A stretch of DNA of 64,000 nucleotides from the human T2T-CHM13v2.0 reference genome, Homo sapiens. Where the stretch lies: NCBI RefSeq assembly GCF_009914755.1, contig NC_060936.1. The stretch is one strand, 5' to 3'. Shown here piece after piece: positions 13,007 to 48,185 of the stretch (its first letter is position 1; the number at the start of each line of letters is the position of its first letter). The notes beneath the pieces are model-generated. The model had not been told where the DNA came from. It ran no database searches and saw nothing but the letters and a program-made list of their open reading frames with translations. The translations under genes were made by a program, and so were the position numbers.

Positions 13007-16000
13007 TAAAATTATTGTACTTTAAGTTTTAGGGTACATGTGCACAATGTGCAGGTTAGTTACATATGTATACATGGGACATGCTGGTGTGCTGCACCCA
13101 CTAACTCGTCATCTAGAATTAGGTATATCTCCCAATGCTATCCCTCCCCACTCCCCCCACCCCACAACAGTCCCCAGAGTGTGATGTTCCCCTTCCTGTG
13201 TCCATGTGTTCTCATTGTTCAATTCCCACCTATGAGTGAGAATATGCGGTACTTGGTTTTTTGTTCTTGCGATAGTTTACTGAGAATGATGATTTCCAAT
13301 TTCATCCATGTCCCTACAAAGGGCATGAACTCATCATTTTTTATGGCTGCATAGTATTCCATGGTGTATATGTGCCACATTTTCTTAATCCAGTCTATCA
13401 TTGTTGGACATTTGGGTTGGTTCCAAGTCTTTGCTATTGTGAATAGTGCCGCAATAAACATACGTGTGCATGTGTCTTTATAGCAGCATGATTTATAGTC
13501 CTTTGGGTATATACCCAGTAATGGGATGGCTGGGTCAAATGGTATTTCTAGTTCTAGATCCCTGAGGAATCGCCACACTGACTTCCACAATGGTTGAACT
13601 AGTTTACAGTCCCACCAACAGTGTAAAAGTGTTCCTATTTCTCCATATCCTCTCCAGCACTTGTTCTTTCCTGACTTTTTAATGATTGCCATTCTAACTG
13701 GTGTGAGATGGTATCTCATTGTGGTTTTGATTTGCATTTCTCTGATGGCCAGTGATACTGAGCATTTTTTCATGTGTTTTTTGGCTGCATAAATGTCTTC
13801 TTTTGAGAAGTGTCTGTTCATGTCCTTCACCCACTTTTTGATGGGGTTGTTTGTTTTTTTCTTGTAAATTTGTTTGAGTTCATTGTAGATTCTGGATATT
13901 AGCCCTTTGTCAGATGAGTAGGTTGTGAAAATTTTCCCCCATTTTTTGGGTTGCCTGTTCACTCTGATGGTAGTTTCTTTTGCTGTGCAGAAGCTCTTTA
14001 GTTTAATGAGATCCCATTTGTCAATTTTGTCTTTTGTTGCCATTGCTTTTGGTGTTTTAGATGTGAAGTCCTTGCCCATGCCTATGTCCTGAATGGTAAT
14101 GCCTAGGTTTACTTCTAGGGTTTTTATGGTTTTAGGTCTAACATTTAAGTCTTTAATCCATCTTGAATTGATTTTTGTATAAGGTGTAAGGAAGGGATCC
14201 AGTTTCAGCTTTCTACATATGGCTAGCCAGTTTTCCCAGCACCATTTATTAAATAGGGAATCCCTTCCCCATTGCTTGTTTTTCTCAGGTTTGTCAAAGA
14301 TCAGATAGTTGTAGATATGCGGCATGATTTCGGAGGGCTCTGTTCTGTTCCATTGATCTATATCTCTGTTTTGGTACCAGTACCATGCTGTTTTGGTTAC
14401 TGTAGCCTTATAGTATAGTTTAAAGTCAGGTAGTGTGATGCCTCCAGCTTCGTTCTTTTGGCTTAGGATTGACTTGGTGATGTGGGTTCTTTTTTGGTTC
14501 CATATGAACTTTAAAGTAGTTTTTTCCAATTCTGTGAAGAAAGTCATTGGTAGCTTGATGGGGATGGCATAGAATCTATAAATTACCTTGGGCAGTATGG
14601 TCATTTTCACGATATTCATTCTTCCTACCCATGAGCATGGAATGTTCTTCTTTTGTTTGTATCCTCTTTTATATTTCATTGAGCAGTGGTTTGTAGTTCT
14701 CCTTGAAGAGGTCCTTCACGTCCCTTGTAAGGTGGATTCCTAGGTATTTTATTCTCTTTGAAGCAATTGTGAATGGGAGTTCACTCATGATTTGGCTCTC
14801 TGTTTGTCTGTTATTGGTGTATAAGAATGCCTGTGATTTTTGTACATTGATTTTGTATCCTGAGACTTTGCTGAAGTTGCCTATCAGCTTAAGGAGATTT
14901 TGGGCTGAGACGATGGGGTTTTCTAGATATACAATCATGTCATCTTCAAACAGGGACAATTTGACTTCCTCTTTTCCTAATTGAATACCCTTTATTTCCT
15001 TCTCCTGGCTAATTGCCCTGGGCAGAACTTCCAACACTATGTTGAATAGGAGTGGTGAGAGAGGGCATCCCTGTCTTGTGCCAGTTTTCAAAGGGAATGC
15101 TTCTGGTTTTTGCCCATTCAGTATGATATTGGCTGTGGGTTTGTCATAGATAGCTCTTATTATTTTGAGATACGTCCCATCAATACCTAATTTATTGAGA
15201 GTTTTCAGCATGAAGAATTGTTGAATTTTGTCAAAGGCCTTTTCTGCATCTATTGAGATAATCATGCGGTTTTTGTCTTTGATTTTGTTTATGTGCTAGA
15301 TTACATTTATTGATTTGTGTATATTGAACCAGCCTTGCATCCCAGGGATGAAGCCCACTTGATCATTGTGGATAAGCTTTTTGGTGTGCTGCTGGATTCC
15401 ATTTGCCAGTATTTTACTGAGGATTTTTGCATCGATGTTCATCAAGGATATTGGTCTAAAATTCTCTTTTTTGGTTGTGTCTCTGCCTGGCTTTGGTATC
15501 AGGATGATGCTGGCCTCATAAAATGAGTTAGGGAGGATTCCCTCTTTTTCTATTGATTGGAATAGTTTCAGAAGGAATAGTACCAGTTCCTCCTTGTACC
15601 TCTGGTAGAATTCGGCTGTGAATCCGTCTGGTCCTGGACTCTTTTTCGTTGGCAAGCTATCGCTTATTGCCACAATTTCAGAGCCTGTTAGTGGTCTATT
15701 CAGAGAGTCAACTTCTTCCTGGTTTAGTCTTGGGAGGGTGTATGTGTCGAGGAATTTATCCATTCCTTCTAGATTTTCTAGTTTATTTGCATAGAGGTAT
15801 TTGTAGTATTCTCTGATGGTAGTTTGTATTTCTGTGGGATCAGTGGTAATATCCCCTTTATCATTTTTTATTGCATCTATTTGATTCTTCTCTCTTTTCT
15901 TCTTTATTAGTCTTGCTAGCGGTCTGTCAATTTTGTTGATCCTTTCAAAAAACCAGCTCCTGGATTCATTAATTTTTTGAAGGGTTTTTTGTGTCTCTAT

Positions 16001-19000
16001 GTCCTTCAGTTCTGCTCTGATTTTAGTTATTTCTTGCCTTCTGCTAGCTTATGAATGTGTTTGCTCTTGCTTTTCTAGTTCTTTTAATTGTGATGTTAGG
16101 GTGTCAGTTTTGGATCTTTCCTGCTTTCTCTTGTGGGCATTTAGTGCTATAAATTGTCCTCTACACACTGCTTTGAATGCGTCCCAGAGATTCTGGCATG
16201 TTGTGTCTTTGTTCTCGTTGGTTTCAAAGAACATCTTTATTTCTGCCTTCATTTCGTTATGTTCCCAGTAGTCATTCAGGAGCAGGTTGTTCAGTTTCCA
16301 TGTAGTTGAGCGGTTTTCAGTGAGTTTCTTAATCCTGAGTTCTAGTTTGATTGCACTGTGGTCTCAGAGATAGTTTGTTATAATTTCTGTTCTTTTACAT
16401 TTGCTGAGGAGAGCTTTACTTCCAATTATGTGGTCAATTTTGGAATAGGTGTGGTGTGGTGCTGAAAAAAATGTATATTCTGTTGATTTGGGGTGGAGAG
16501 TTCTGTAGATGTCTATTAGGTCCACTTGGTGCAGAGCTGAGTTCAATTCTTGGGTATCCTTGTTAACTTTCTGTCTCATTGATCTGTCTAATGTTGACAG
16601 TGGGGTGTTAAAGTCTCCCATTATTATTGTATGGGAGTCTAAGTCTCTTTGTAGGTCACTCAGGACTTGCTTTATGAATCTGGGTGCTCCTGTATTGGGT
16701 GCATATATATTTAGGATAGTTAGCTCTTCTTGTTGAATTGATCCCTTTACCATTATGTAATGGCCTTCTTTGTCTCTTTTGATCTTTGTTGGTTTAAAGT
16801 CTGTTTTATCAGAGACTAGGATTGCAACCCCTGCCTTTGTTTGTTTTCCATTTGCTTGGTAGATCTTCCTCCATCCTTTTATTTTGAGCCTATGTGTGTC
16901 TCTGCATGTGAGATGGGTTTCCTGAATACAACACACTGATGGGTCTTGACTCTTTATCTAATTTGCCAGTCTGTGTCTTTTAATTGGAGCATTTAGTCCA
17001 TTTACATTTAAAGTTAATATTGTTATGTGTGAATTTGAACCTGTCAGTATGATGTTAGCTGGTTTATTTTGCTCGTTAGTTGATGCAGTTTCTTCTTAGT
17101 CTCGATGGTCTTTACATTTTGGCATGATTTTGCAGCGGCTGGTACTATTTGTTCCTTTCCATGTTTAGTGCTTCCTTCAGGAGCTCTTTTAGGGCAGGCC
17201 TGGTGGTGACAAAATCTCTCAGCATTTGCTTGTCTGTAAAGTATTTTATTTCTCCTTCACTTATGAAGCTTAGTTTGGCTGGATATGAAATTCTGGATTG
17301 AAAATTCTTTTCTTTAAGAATGTTGAATATTGGCCCCCACTCTCTTCTGGCTTCTAGAGTTTCTGCCGAGAGATCCACTGTTAGTCTGATGGGCTTCCCT
17401 TTGTGGGTAACCCGACCTTTCTCTCTGGCTGCCCTTAACATTTTTTCCTTCATTTCAACTTTGGTGAATCTGACAATTATGTGTCTTAGAGTTGCTCTTC
17501 TCAAGGAGTATCTTTGTGGCATTCTCTGTATTTCCTGAATCTGAATGTTGGCCTGCCTTGCTAGATTGGGGAAGTTCTCCTGGATAACATCCTGCAGAGT
17601 GTTTTCCAACTTGATTCCATTCTCGCCATCACTTTCAGGTATACCAATCATACGTAGATTTGGTCTTTTCACATAGTCCCGTATTTCTTGGAGGGTTTGT
17701 TCATTTCTTTTTATTCTTTTTTCTCTAAACTTCCCTTCTTGCTTCATTTCATTCATTTCATCTTCCATCGCTGATACCCTTTCTCCCAGTTGATTGCATT
17801 GGCTCCTGATGCTTCTGCATTCTTCACGTAGTTCTCGTGCCTTGGCTTTCAGCTCCATCAGCTCCTTTAAGCACTTCTCTGTATTGGTTATTCTAGTTAT
17901 ACATTCATCTACATTTTTTTCAAAGTTTTCAACTTCTTTGCCTTTGGTTTGAATTTCCTCCTGTAGCTCGGAGTAGTTTGATCGTCCGAAGCCTTCTTCT
18001 CTCAACTCGTGAAAGTCATTCTCTGTCCAGCTTTGTTCTGTTGCTGGTGAGGAAGTGCGATCCTTTGGAGGAGGAGAGGTGCTCTGCTTTTTAGAGTTTC
18101 CAGTTTTCTGCTCTGTTTTTTCCCCATCTTTGTGGTTTTATCTACTTTTGGTCTTTGATGATGGTGATGTACAGATGGGTTTTTGGTGTGGATGTCCTTT
18201 CTGTTTGTTAGTTTTCCTCCTAACAGACAGGACCCTCCGCTGCAGGTCTGTTGGAGTTTGCTAGAGGTCTACTCCAGACCCTGTTAGCCTGGGTACCAGC
18301 AGCGGTGGCTGCAGAACAGTGGATTTTCGTGAACCGCAAATGCTGCTGTCTGATCATTCCTCTGGAAGTTTTGTCTCAGAGGAGTACCCGGCCTTGTGAG
18401 GTGTCAGTCTGCCTCTACTGGGGGGTGCCTCCCAGTTAGGCTGCTCGGCGGTCAGGGGTCAGGGACCCACTTGAGGAGGCAGTCTGCCCGTTCTCAGATC
18501 TCCAGCTGTGTGCTGGGAGAACCACTGCTCTCTTCAAAGCTGTCAGACAGGGACATTTAAGTCTGCAGAGGTTACTGCTGTCTTTTTGTTTGTCTGTGCC
18601 CTGCCCCCAGAGGTGGAGCCTACAGAGGCAGGCAGGCCTCCTTGAGCTGTGGTGGGCTCCACCCAGTTGGAGCTTCCAGGCTGCTTTGTTTACCTAAGCA
18701 AGCCTGGGCAATGGCGGGTGCCCCTCACCCAGCCTCGCTGCCACCTTGCAGTTTGATCTCAGACTGCTGTGCTAGCAATCAGGCAGACTCCGTGGGGGTA
18801 GGACCCCCTGAGCCATGTGCAGGATATAATCTCCTGGTGTGCCGTTTTTTAAGCCCGTCGGAAAAGCGCAGTATTCGGGTGGGAGTGACTGGATTTTCCA
18901 GGTGCCATCTGTCACCCCTTTCTTTGACTAGGAAAGGGAACTCCCTGACCCCTTGTGCTCCCCAAGTGAGGCAATGCCTCGCCCTGCTTCGGCTCTCTCA

Positions 19001-48100: not shown

Positions 48101-48185
48101 CGTGGCACATGTATACATATGTAACTAACCTGCACAATGTGCACATGTACCCTAAAACTTAAAGTATAATAATAAAAGGAAAAAA
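42172..48185 (+). mobile_element. L1 #3: full-length L1PA2/L1PA3(short)-like element; ORF1 and ORF2 disrupted
   Basis: Starts GCAAGATGGCCG; TSD AGAAATTTAG at 42162-42171 and 48186-48195; 5'UTR lacks the ~128-bp segment present in L1 #1 and #2; RT motif reads LADD. Confidence 0.97.

What the first reader, a model, noticed from the sequence alone, without database searches (positions are those of the whole stretch)
13007..48185. Three independently inserted L1s share the same inactivating nonsense codon and other private changes: local concerted evolution
Seen: each L1 has its own TSD and distinct subfamily marks (3'UTR of #2 is older type; #3 lacks the 128-bp 5'UTR segment). Yet all three carry TGA where the endonuclease motif N(Y/C)L-S-DH has TCA (16364-16366 minus, 29298-29300, 44820-44822). 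All three also share, against the L1PA consensus as I remember it, KILSKIL (N>S), ELxDIET (E>D), EIVAxS (I>S), gacttTaaac and gctgggTgagggg. Other changes are shared pairwise in a mosaic: #1+#2 (TAA after EQTHS at 16049-16051 and 29612-29614, KQTKAG, RFYAIP, LEVNLG, an extra A in the inter-ORF spacer), #1+#3 (VLPRAI), #2+#3 (FTVASK, gccCcctctc). Established: L1 cis-preference makes inheritance of an ORF2 stop from a source element unlikely. Inference: repeated non-allelic gene conversion among neighbouring L1s has spread disabling mutations and keeps them similar enough to recombine around essential exons.
Basis: partly seen in the sequence, partly recalled or inferred. Interest (0 to 1): 0.8.

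Follow-up and report, generated by a model that had tools for sequence, protein, structure and literature searches.

The report
Neighbouring L1 copies exchanging sequence patches
Three old, dead L1 retrotransposons that landed separately in introns of the human PTPRQ gene have since copied stretches of sequence, including a stop codon, from one another, which is a clear local example of a process already known for repeats.

Summary
Three L1PA copies with separate target-site duplications (e1 13007-19084 minus, e2 26516-32667, e3 42172-48185) all carry TGA at the Ser228 position of ORF2p, plus the other listed alleles.

These are not subfamily variants:
- The TGA 33-mer occurs 41 times in the genome, against 5551 for TCA.
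- A shared 5'UTR T occurs 5 times, against 1551.
- Three other shared alleles occur 5, 43 and 46 times.
- No unlinked copy appears in two of these lists.

e1 and e2 are inverted, 7.4 kb apart, and flank PTPRQ exons 4-6. They show zero-difference runs of 478, 357 and 341 nt on a 4-6% baseline (P 5e-5). In their 3' third they are no closer to each other than to unlinked copies. This is the signature of non-allelic gene conversion.

e3 shows no long tracts (P 0.37 and 0.23). Its link is five isolated rare alleles, so short old patches are inferred, not shown.

The claim that conversion keeps the copies recombination-competent is unsupported. This is a new example of a known process. Ape orthologues, the pangenome and read pile-ups were not available.

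The parts
13007..19084 (-). e1: L1PA copy in PTPRQ intron 3. It lacks about 73 nt at the 5' end. It is flanked by the 12-nt target-site duplication TGGATGCCTTTT at 12995-13006 and 19085-19096.
   Evidence: ORF2p match
26516..32667 (+). e2: full-length L1PA copy in intron 6, starting GGGGGGAGCCAAGATGG. The target-site duplication AATGATTTC lies at 26507-26515 and 32668-32676. e2 carries more old-type alleles than e1, including three in the 3'UTR.
42172..48185 (+). e3: L1PA copy in intron 8. It lacks the 128-nt 5'UTR segment. The target-site duplication AGAAATTTAG lies at 42162-42171 and 48186-48195. Its nearest relatives are unlinked copies, at 97.2% identity.
16364..16366 (-). The shared TGA at the Ser228 position of ORF2p, here in e1. 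The same codon lies at 29298-29300 in e2 and 44820-44822 in e3.
   Evidence: genome counts 41 against 5551
26877..27354 (+). Tract A: a 478-nt run with no difference between e2 and e1 (e1 18323-18800), in the 5'UTR. The wider stretch 26722-27485 differs by 0.26%. It holds the shared rare T (GCTGGGTGAGGGG).
28748..29088 (+). Tract B: a 341-nt run with no difference between e2 and e1 (e1 16590-16930).
29507..29863 (+). Tract C: a 357-nt run with no difference between e2 and e1 (e1 15800-16156). It holds the shared TAA after EQTHS (29612-29614 and 16049-16051) and the GAC (E>D) allele.
19097..26506 (.). The 7.4-kb spacer between the inverted pair e1 and e2. By the hub's annotation it holds PTPRQ exons at 22214-22283, 23923-24122 and 25292-25541.
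   Evidence: for the boundaries; exon places come from the annotation given with the finding

Best explanation
Three L1PA retrotransposons inserted separately into introns 3, 6 and 8 of PTPRQ and decayed there. Since then, repair of DNA breaks in one copy has repeatedly used a neighbouring copy as template. This is non-allelic, non-crossover gene conversion, and it pastes patches of the donor, private mutations included, into the recipient.

Between the inverted pair e1 and e2, 7.4 kb apart, this has happened several times. At least three patches (about 0.76 kb, 341 nt and 357 nt) have not yet collected a single difference within their 478-, 341- and 357-nt cores, so they are recent. That is how the TAA stop and some 30 other private alleles came to be shared.

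The TGA at the Ser228 position and four other rare alleles also reached e3, or came from it. The patches involved are inferred to be short (under 25 to 460 nt between flanking e3-specific sites) and older.

Shown here: independent insertion, the rarity and unique combination of the alleles, and the mosaic of e1-e2 divergence. Inferred: the repair mechanism, the direction of transfer, the ages of the patches, and that e3's sharing arose the same way.
For: 1. Independent insertions. Each copy has its own target-site duplication, and the 5' ends differ.

2. The alleles are rare genome-wide. Counts are exact matches and include the window's own copies:
- TGA 41, against TCA 5551.
- 5'UTR T 5, against G 1551.
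- GAC 43.
- TAAGC..TAGCT 5.
- gacttT 46.
- e1+e2 TAA 7 and AAATGG 28.
- e1+e3 VLPRAI allele 15.
Reading those lists by eye, no place outside the window occurs in two of them. At least 8 of the 27 other TGA loci fetched belong to one duplicated cluster (pairs 96.4-100% identical). The number of independent TGA origins is therefore lower still.

3. Mosaic divergence between e1 and e2. There are 211 difference events in 6050 aligned nt, yet zero-difference runs of 478, 357 and 341 nt. In 20,000 uniform placements, a longest run of at least 478 nt had frequency 5e-5, and the third-longest run never reached 341 nt. A permutation of the variable sites gave a longest e1=e2 run of 24 sites, reached in 0 of 10,000 shuffles.

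4. Independent origin of e1 and e2 outside the tracts. At e2 30300-31400 and 31400-32600, e1-e2 divergence is 5.00% and 3.75%. The medians to 29 unlinked copies are 4.37/4.27% and 3.40/4.08%. e1 and e2 also differ at 28 sites where only one of them carries an allele that is common or old-type among the comparison copies.

5. e3 is an outlier among copies like it. It uniquely shares 6 alleles with e1 and 6 with e2. The 27 other e3-like copies share at most 2-3, with a median of 0. Only the two older copies L037 and L038 share more, and those are older alleles that e3 does not carry.

6. Four of the five alleles shared by all three are transversions, and none sits in a CpG.

7. Conversion between neighbouring retroelements within about 10 kb is established for Alu (passages of PMC8230782).
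Against: - For e3 there is no tract-level signal. The longest runs of agreeing variable sites are 5 for both e1-e3 and e2-e3 (P 0.37 and 0.23).
- e3 is not closer to e1 or e2 than to unlinked copies in any of 8 regions.
- Some of the shared alleles in e3 sit in identical runs of only 5-14 nt. Very short patches, or later private mutations beside them, must then be assumed.
- e2 has G and e1/e3 have A five bases before the TGA. Either one patch boundary or one extra transition must fall within those 5 nt.
- Exact-match counts miss diverged copies (a 33-mer survives in only a fraction of copies this old). A very small unlinked sub-lineage could therefore be overlooked.
- No orthologue or second human haplotype was available, so neither the change over time nor its direction was observed.
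- FTVASK (e2+e3) is fairly common, at 155 copies, and carries little weight.
Confidence: 0.8

Rival explanations
1. Common descent from one dead source. e1 and e2 (and perhaps e3) would be copies of a single defective L1 that already carried the stops and was mobilised in trans by another element's proteins, so the sharing is inherited.
For: e1 and e2 share 31 rare alleles plus the 5 found in all three, spread over the 5' 3.7 kb and including two ORF2 stops. The combinations occur nowhere else in the genome.
Against: - A single split predicts even divergence. Observed are 0% tracts on a 4-6% baseline.
- In the 3' third, e1 and e2 are no closer to each other than to unlinked copies, and they differ at 28 sites where only one carries a common or old-type allele.
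- e3 differs from e1 and e2 at about 70 substitution columns plus the 128-nt indel, and it has closer unlinked relatives.
- No other progeny exists.
- Three landings within 35 kb would be a coincidence with no known mechanism.
- From recall, not tested here: cis-preference of L1 proteins also argues against it.
Confidence: 0.07
2. Assembly or polishing artefact. Reads from one L1 would have been used to build or correct another, so paralogous bases were written into the wrong copy.
For: Nothing from the calls points to it. It is kept because isolated shared bases (e3) and perfectly identical tracts (e1-e2) are the forms such errors would take, and no reads could be inspected.
Against: The copies are about 6 kb, 95-96% identical overall, and each sits between unique intron sequence. 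The window has no N. The shared alleles include sites with later private changes beside them, which argues for age rather than a copying error. From recall, not tested: this assembly was built from reads longer than the elements.
Confidence: 0.05
3. Ordinary subfamily variants or recurrent mutation. The shared alleles would be common in an L1PA sub-lineage, or would sit at hypermutable sites, so sharing needs no local process.
For: One pairwise allele (FTVASK) is fairly common, at 155 copies. Unlinked copies in the comparison set sometimes share 5-6 private alleles through a common source. Several sites that flank the shared alleles are CpG.
Against: Allele frequencies are 0.1-0.8%. No unlinked copy occurs in two lists. 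Four of the five alleles shared by all three are non-CpG transversions. With about 36 candidate alleles at roughly 0.8% each, about 0.3 would be expected in e3 by chance, and 5 are seen (my arithmetic from those calls). A stop in ORF2 cannot mark an active lineage.
Confidence: 0.03

Closest known systems
Proximity-dependent non-allelic gene conversion among Alu elements. This is the whole-genome study cited as ref. 8 in PMC8230782; I read passages of that review only.
   Same: Retroelements that inserted independently and lie within about 10 kb of one another come to share non-diagnostic mutations. The effect falls with distance. Dead copies can act as donors.
   Different: Here the elements are 6-kb L1s, so several separate tracts of different ages can be seen within one pair. 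The transferred changes include nonsense codons. The distances are 7.4, 9.5 and 23 kb.
Inverted L1 pairs as substrates of non-allelic homologous recombination. An example is the polymorphic inversion HsInv0341 between 6.2-kb L1PA3 copies (table passage of PMC3961182).
   Same: An inverted pair of about 6-kb L1PA copies a few kb apart, and evidence of homologous interaction between them.
   Different: In this assembly only non-crossover exchange is seen. An inversion of the spacer would turn PTPRQ exons 4-6 around, and none was observed or could be tested.
Arm-to-arm gene conversion in chromosome palindromes (PMC3403216, seen only as a search listing and abstract start).
   Same: Inverted repeats separated by a spacer exchange sequence within one chromosome.
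   Different: Palindrome arms are kept near 100% identical along their whole length. Here only about 1.5 kb of 6 kb is homogenised, and the rest diverges freely.

Membership tests
LINE-1 (primate L1PA group) | Encodes ORF2p with endonuclease and reverse-transcriptase homology | tested here: met
   234 aa of e1 match human L1 ORF2p residues 99-332 (8UW3) at E 4.9e-146, and the endonuclease structures 1VYB and 8SP5.
LINE-1 (primate L1PA group) | About 6 kb long, A-rich 3' end, flanked by a target-site duplication | tested here: met
   Body lengths are 6078, 6152 and 6014 nt. The duplications are 9-12 nt. The A-rich ends are short.
LINE-1 (primate L1PA group) | Subfamily (L1PA2-5) assigned from diagnostic positions | not testable with these tools
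   No repeat-family library is held. What the calls show is limited: e3 lacks a 128-nt 5'UTR segment, and e1 and e2 carry alleles common among older copies. Subfamily names in this report are therefore not asserted.
Non-allelic (interlocus) gene conversion | The paralogous copies are of independent origin | tested here: met
   Separate target-site duplications. In the 3' third, e1-e2 divergence equals that to unlinked copies.
Non-allelic (interlocus) gene conversion | Tracts of identity significantly longer than the background divergence allows | tested here: met
   For e1-e2: runs of 478, 357 and 341 nt, P 5e-5 and 0 of 20,000, and 0 of 10,000. For e1-e3 and e2-e3 the feature is not met: P 0.37 and 0.23.
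Non-allelic (interlocus) gene conversion | Shared derived alleles absent from the rest of the family | tested here: met
   Genome counts of 5-46 against 1551-5551, with no unlinked copy in two lists.
Non-allelic (interlocus) gene conversion | An orthologue or second haplotype shows the recipient's state before conversion, and the direction of transfer | not testable with these tools
Concerted evolution (sustained homogenisation of paralogues) | Paralogues stay more alike than expected along most of their length | tested here: not met
   Only about 1.5 of 6 kb of e1-e2 is homogenised. e3 is nowhere closer to e1 or e2 than to unlinked copies.

The most novel reading that the evidence does not exclude
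The exchange between the inverted pair e1 and e2 is still going on in the human lineage. The 1176 nt with no difference would date the tracts to roughly the last 1-2.5 million years. This is my estimate from the 4-6% baseline and a recalled neutral rate, not a tool result. The tracts should then be absent from ape orthologues and possibly polymorphic among people. The pair would mark a live recombination substrate whose crossover outcome would invert exons 4-6 of PTPRQ, a gene I recall, from no call, as linked to hearing loss.
Probability: 0.3. Interest if true: 0.55.

Novelty: new member of a known kind. Interest (0 to 1): 0.4.

Why it matters
- The locus gives a clean, countable example of dispersed L1 copies within 7-25 kb exchanging sequence after insertion. 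The literature I could search documents this mainly for Alu.
- It shows that a nonsense codon shared by neighbouring L1s need not be inherited from a source element.
- Ages and subfamily calls based on divergence can be wrong locally. Here e1-e2 divergence ranges from 0% to 5% within one element.
- The perfectly identical tracts in an inverted pair around three coding exons give a concrete prediction of structural and conversion polymorphism. That prediction can be checked in pangenome data.

Tried and rejected
- **Segmental duplication of one L1:** rejected, because the target-site duplications and flanks differ.
- **A TGA-bearing sub-lineage:** rejected. The 27 other TGA loci fetched are 74-95% identical to the three copies over the central 3 kb, none closer than 96.1%. 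They are mostly older copies, plus one duplicated cluster.
- **Apparent sharing by L030, L004 and L013:** this was an alignment artefact. Six loci (L004, L011, L013, L017, L019, L030) are only partly L1 (60-85% identity). I dropped them but not, so the T frequencies from those two calls are approximate.
- **Nearest relatives by DNA search:** only 40 of 9911-14727 candidates were scored. Those calls give a sample, not a ranking of the genome. Searches returned no loci, so there is no comparison set matched to e1 and e2.
- **Unique-sharing control with the larger pool (central region):** this was too strict, since one carrier elsewhere removes a site. It gave e3 only 1 site per reference.
- **Literature:** a search for PTPRQ + LINE-1 + inversion found 0 papers. 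Searches found no paper on this locus and none I recognised as a genome-wide study of L1-L1 local conversion. They cover open-access text only.
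Full report
**What is there.** The stretch holds three L1 copies of about 6 kb.
- e1 lies on the minus strand at 13007-19084.
- e2 lies on the plus strand at 26516-32667.
- e3 lies on the plus strand at 42172-48185.

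Each copy is flanked by its own target-site duplication: TGGATGCCTTTT at 12995 and 19085, AATGATTTC at 26507 and 32668, AGAAATTTAG at 42162 and 48186. e2 begins at the usual L1 5' end, e3 a few bases in, and e1 about 73 nt in. e3 lacks a 128-nt 5'UTR segment that e1 and e2 carry, as do about 2 of 29 unlinked comparison copies. These are therefore three separate retrotransposition events, not a local duplication.

By the annotation supplied with the finding, the copies sit in PTPRQ introns 3, 6 and 8. e1 and e2 are inverted, with their 5' ends facing each other across 7.4 kb that holds exons 4-6. e2 and e3 are direct repeats across 9.5 kb that holds exons 7-8.

**The observation.** TGA is present at all three stated places. 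Read with X at the stop, the e1 stretch aligns to residues 99-332 of human L1 ORF2p (8UW3, E 4.9e-146), and the X falls on Ser228 of NYL-S-DH. One qualification applies: the frame holding the TGA is closed again upstream in each copy, and e3 has another private stop. The TGA is thus one of several lesions in copies that are long dead.

**Are the shared alleles subfamily variants?** The whole genome can be searched by pattern, so I counted exact matches around each allele.

| Allele | Shared by | Genome count (incl. window) | Common allele |
|---|---|---|---|
| TGA | all three | 41 | TCA 5551 |
| 5'UTR T (GCTGGGTGAGGGG) | all three | 5 | G 1551 |
| GAC (E>D) | all three | 43 | not counted |
| TAAGC..TAGCT | all three | 5 | not counted |
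| gacttT | all three | 46 | not counted |
| TAA | e1+e2 | 7 | not counted |
| AAATGG | e1+e2 | 28 | not counted |
| VLPRAI allele | e1+e3 | 15 | not counted |
| FTVASK allele | e2+e3 | 155 | not counted |

FTVASK is fairly common and so says little. Reading the lists against each other by eye, no place outside the window occurs in two of them.

The 27 other TGA loci I fetched are 74-95% identical to the three copies over the central 3 kb, and none is closer than 96.1%. At least eight of them belong to one duplicated cluster (pairs 96.4-100% identical).

A caveat applies to these counts. An exact 26-33-mer survives in only a fraction of copies this old, so the counts are samples, and a very small unlinked sub-lineage could be missed.

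**e1 and e2.** A pairwise alignment has 211 difference events in 6050 nt, and they are very unevenly placed.
- There are zero-difference runs of 478 nt (e2 26877-27354), 357 nt (29507-29863) and 341 nt (28748-29088).
- Windows elsewhere hold 14-18 differences per 300 nt.
- In 20,000 uniform placements of the same number of events, a longest run of at least 478 nt occurred with frequency 5e-5, and the third-longest run never reached 341 nt.
- A permutation of the order of variable sites in the three-way alignment gave a longest e1=e2 run of 24 sites, reached in 0 of 10,000 shuffles.

Region by region, e1-e2 divergence compares with divergence to the 29 unlinked copies as follows.

| Region | e1-e2 divergence | Median to 29 unlinked copies |
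|---|---|---|
| Tract A, extended (26722-27485) | 0.26% | 5.06% |
| Tract B | 0.00% | 1.76% |
| Tract C | 0.00% | 3.65% |
| 3' third (30300-31400 / 31400-32600) | 5.00% / 3.75% | e1 4.37 and 3.40%; e2 4.27 and 4.08% |

In the 3' third the two copies are as far from each other as from unlinked copies. They also differ at 28 sites where only one of them carries an allele that is common or old-type among the comparison copies.

The rare alleles shared by e1 and e2 (31, plus the 5 shared by all three) are about three times denser inside tracts A and C (8 in 478 nt and 6 in 357 nt) than on average (36 in about 6 kb). This is expected if a donor's private mutations were copied across.

A single split from a common dead source would give even divergence, so it does not fit. 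The data fit two independent insertions followed by several conversion events of different ages. The youngest tracts have no differences at all.

**e3.** The picture here is different. Its best unlinked relatives are 97.2% identical over the central 3 kb, while e1 and e2 are about 95.5%. No region of e3 is closer to e1 or e2 than to unlinked copies. The run test gives P 0.37 for e1-e3 and P 0.23 for e2-e3.

What links e3 to the others is five isolated rare alleles shared by all three: G>T in the 5'UTR, the TGA, A>C (E>D), T>G, and C>T. Four are transversions and none sits in a CpG. To these can be added VLPRAI, shared with e1.

With about 36 candidate alleles at roughly 0.8% each, about 0.3 would be expected in e3 by chance (my arithmetic from the counts above). 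As an empirical control, e3 uniquely shares 6 alleles with e1 and 6 with e2. The 27 other e3-like copies share at most 2-3, with a median of 0. Only the two older copies L037 and L038 share more, and those are alleles e3 does not carry.

The nearest sites where e3 keeps its own type bound each putative patch to between about 25 and 460 nt. Some shared alleles have private e3 changes right beside them, which suggests age. I therefore infer short, old conversion patches involving e3, but no tract is demonstrated.

One awkward detail remains. e2 has G and e1/e3 have A five bases before the TGA, so one boundary or one extra transition must fall within those 5 nt.

**Mechanism and what remains inferred.** Non-crossover repair using a nearby paralogue as template explains three things together: independent insertion, a unique combination of alleles, and mosaic divergence. 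The direction of transfer, the element in which each mutation first arose, and the ages of the patches are not shown.

From the 4-6% baseline and a recalled neutral rate, zero differences over 1176 nt suggest that the youngest tracts are at most about 1-2.5 million years old. This is an estimate, not a tool result.

Outside the tracts they decay like any other copies.

**Comparison with what is known.** I read passages of PMC8230782. They report that conversion among Alu elements is significant especially among neighbours, acts within about 10 kb, falls with distance, and can run from old inactive copies to young ones. A table passage of PMC3961182 lists a validated human inversion between 6.2-kb inverted L1PA3 copies, so such pairs do recombine. 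My searches found nothing on this locus, and 0 papers hold PTPRQ, LINE-1 and inversion together. They cover open-access text only. The finding is therefore a well-resolved new example of a known process.

**Not tested.** Ape orthologues, other human haplotypes and read pile-ups could not be examined. The artefact rival and the dating therefore stay open. No repeat library was available, so no subfamily names are asserted.

Noticed in passing
L005/L006 (chr2 94.8 Mb), L002/L003 (chr1 128.8-129.0 Mb), L027/L028 (chr16 33-34 Mb), with L001 and L029: Several of the other TGA-bearing L1 copies are copies of each other: 100%, 99.9% and 99.7% identical pairs, and a wider cluster at 96.4-97%. One mutated L1 was apparently spread by large duplications, so the 41 matches stand for fewer independent mutations.
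   Followed up: partly
L040 (chr14:24561736-24567317): This unlinked copy is among the nearest relatives of both e3 and e1. It is one of only two copies outside the window with the TAAGCAATAGCT haplotype. It has TCA, not TGA, and lacks the other rare alleles.
   Followed up: partly
window 12995-13006 and 19085-19096, with flanks: e1 is inserted inside sequence that NCBI's file masks as repeat on both sides. From the flank text I suspect an older L1 fragment, but I did not test this.
   Followed up: no
window 13007-13020, 32640-32667, 48160-48185: All three copies end in only short, interrupted A-rich stretches rather than long poly(A) tails.
   Followed up: no
chr3:104.756 Mb and chr9:35.267 Mb (places): Two unlinked copies appear in both the GAC list and the FTVASK list. 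About 1.2 such overlaps are expected by chance, given 43 and 155 copies. This shows what chance co-occurrence looks like for the commoner allele.
   Followed up: no
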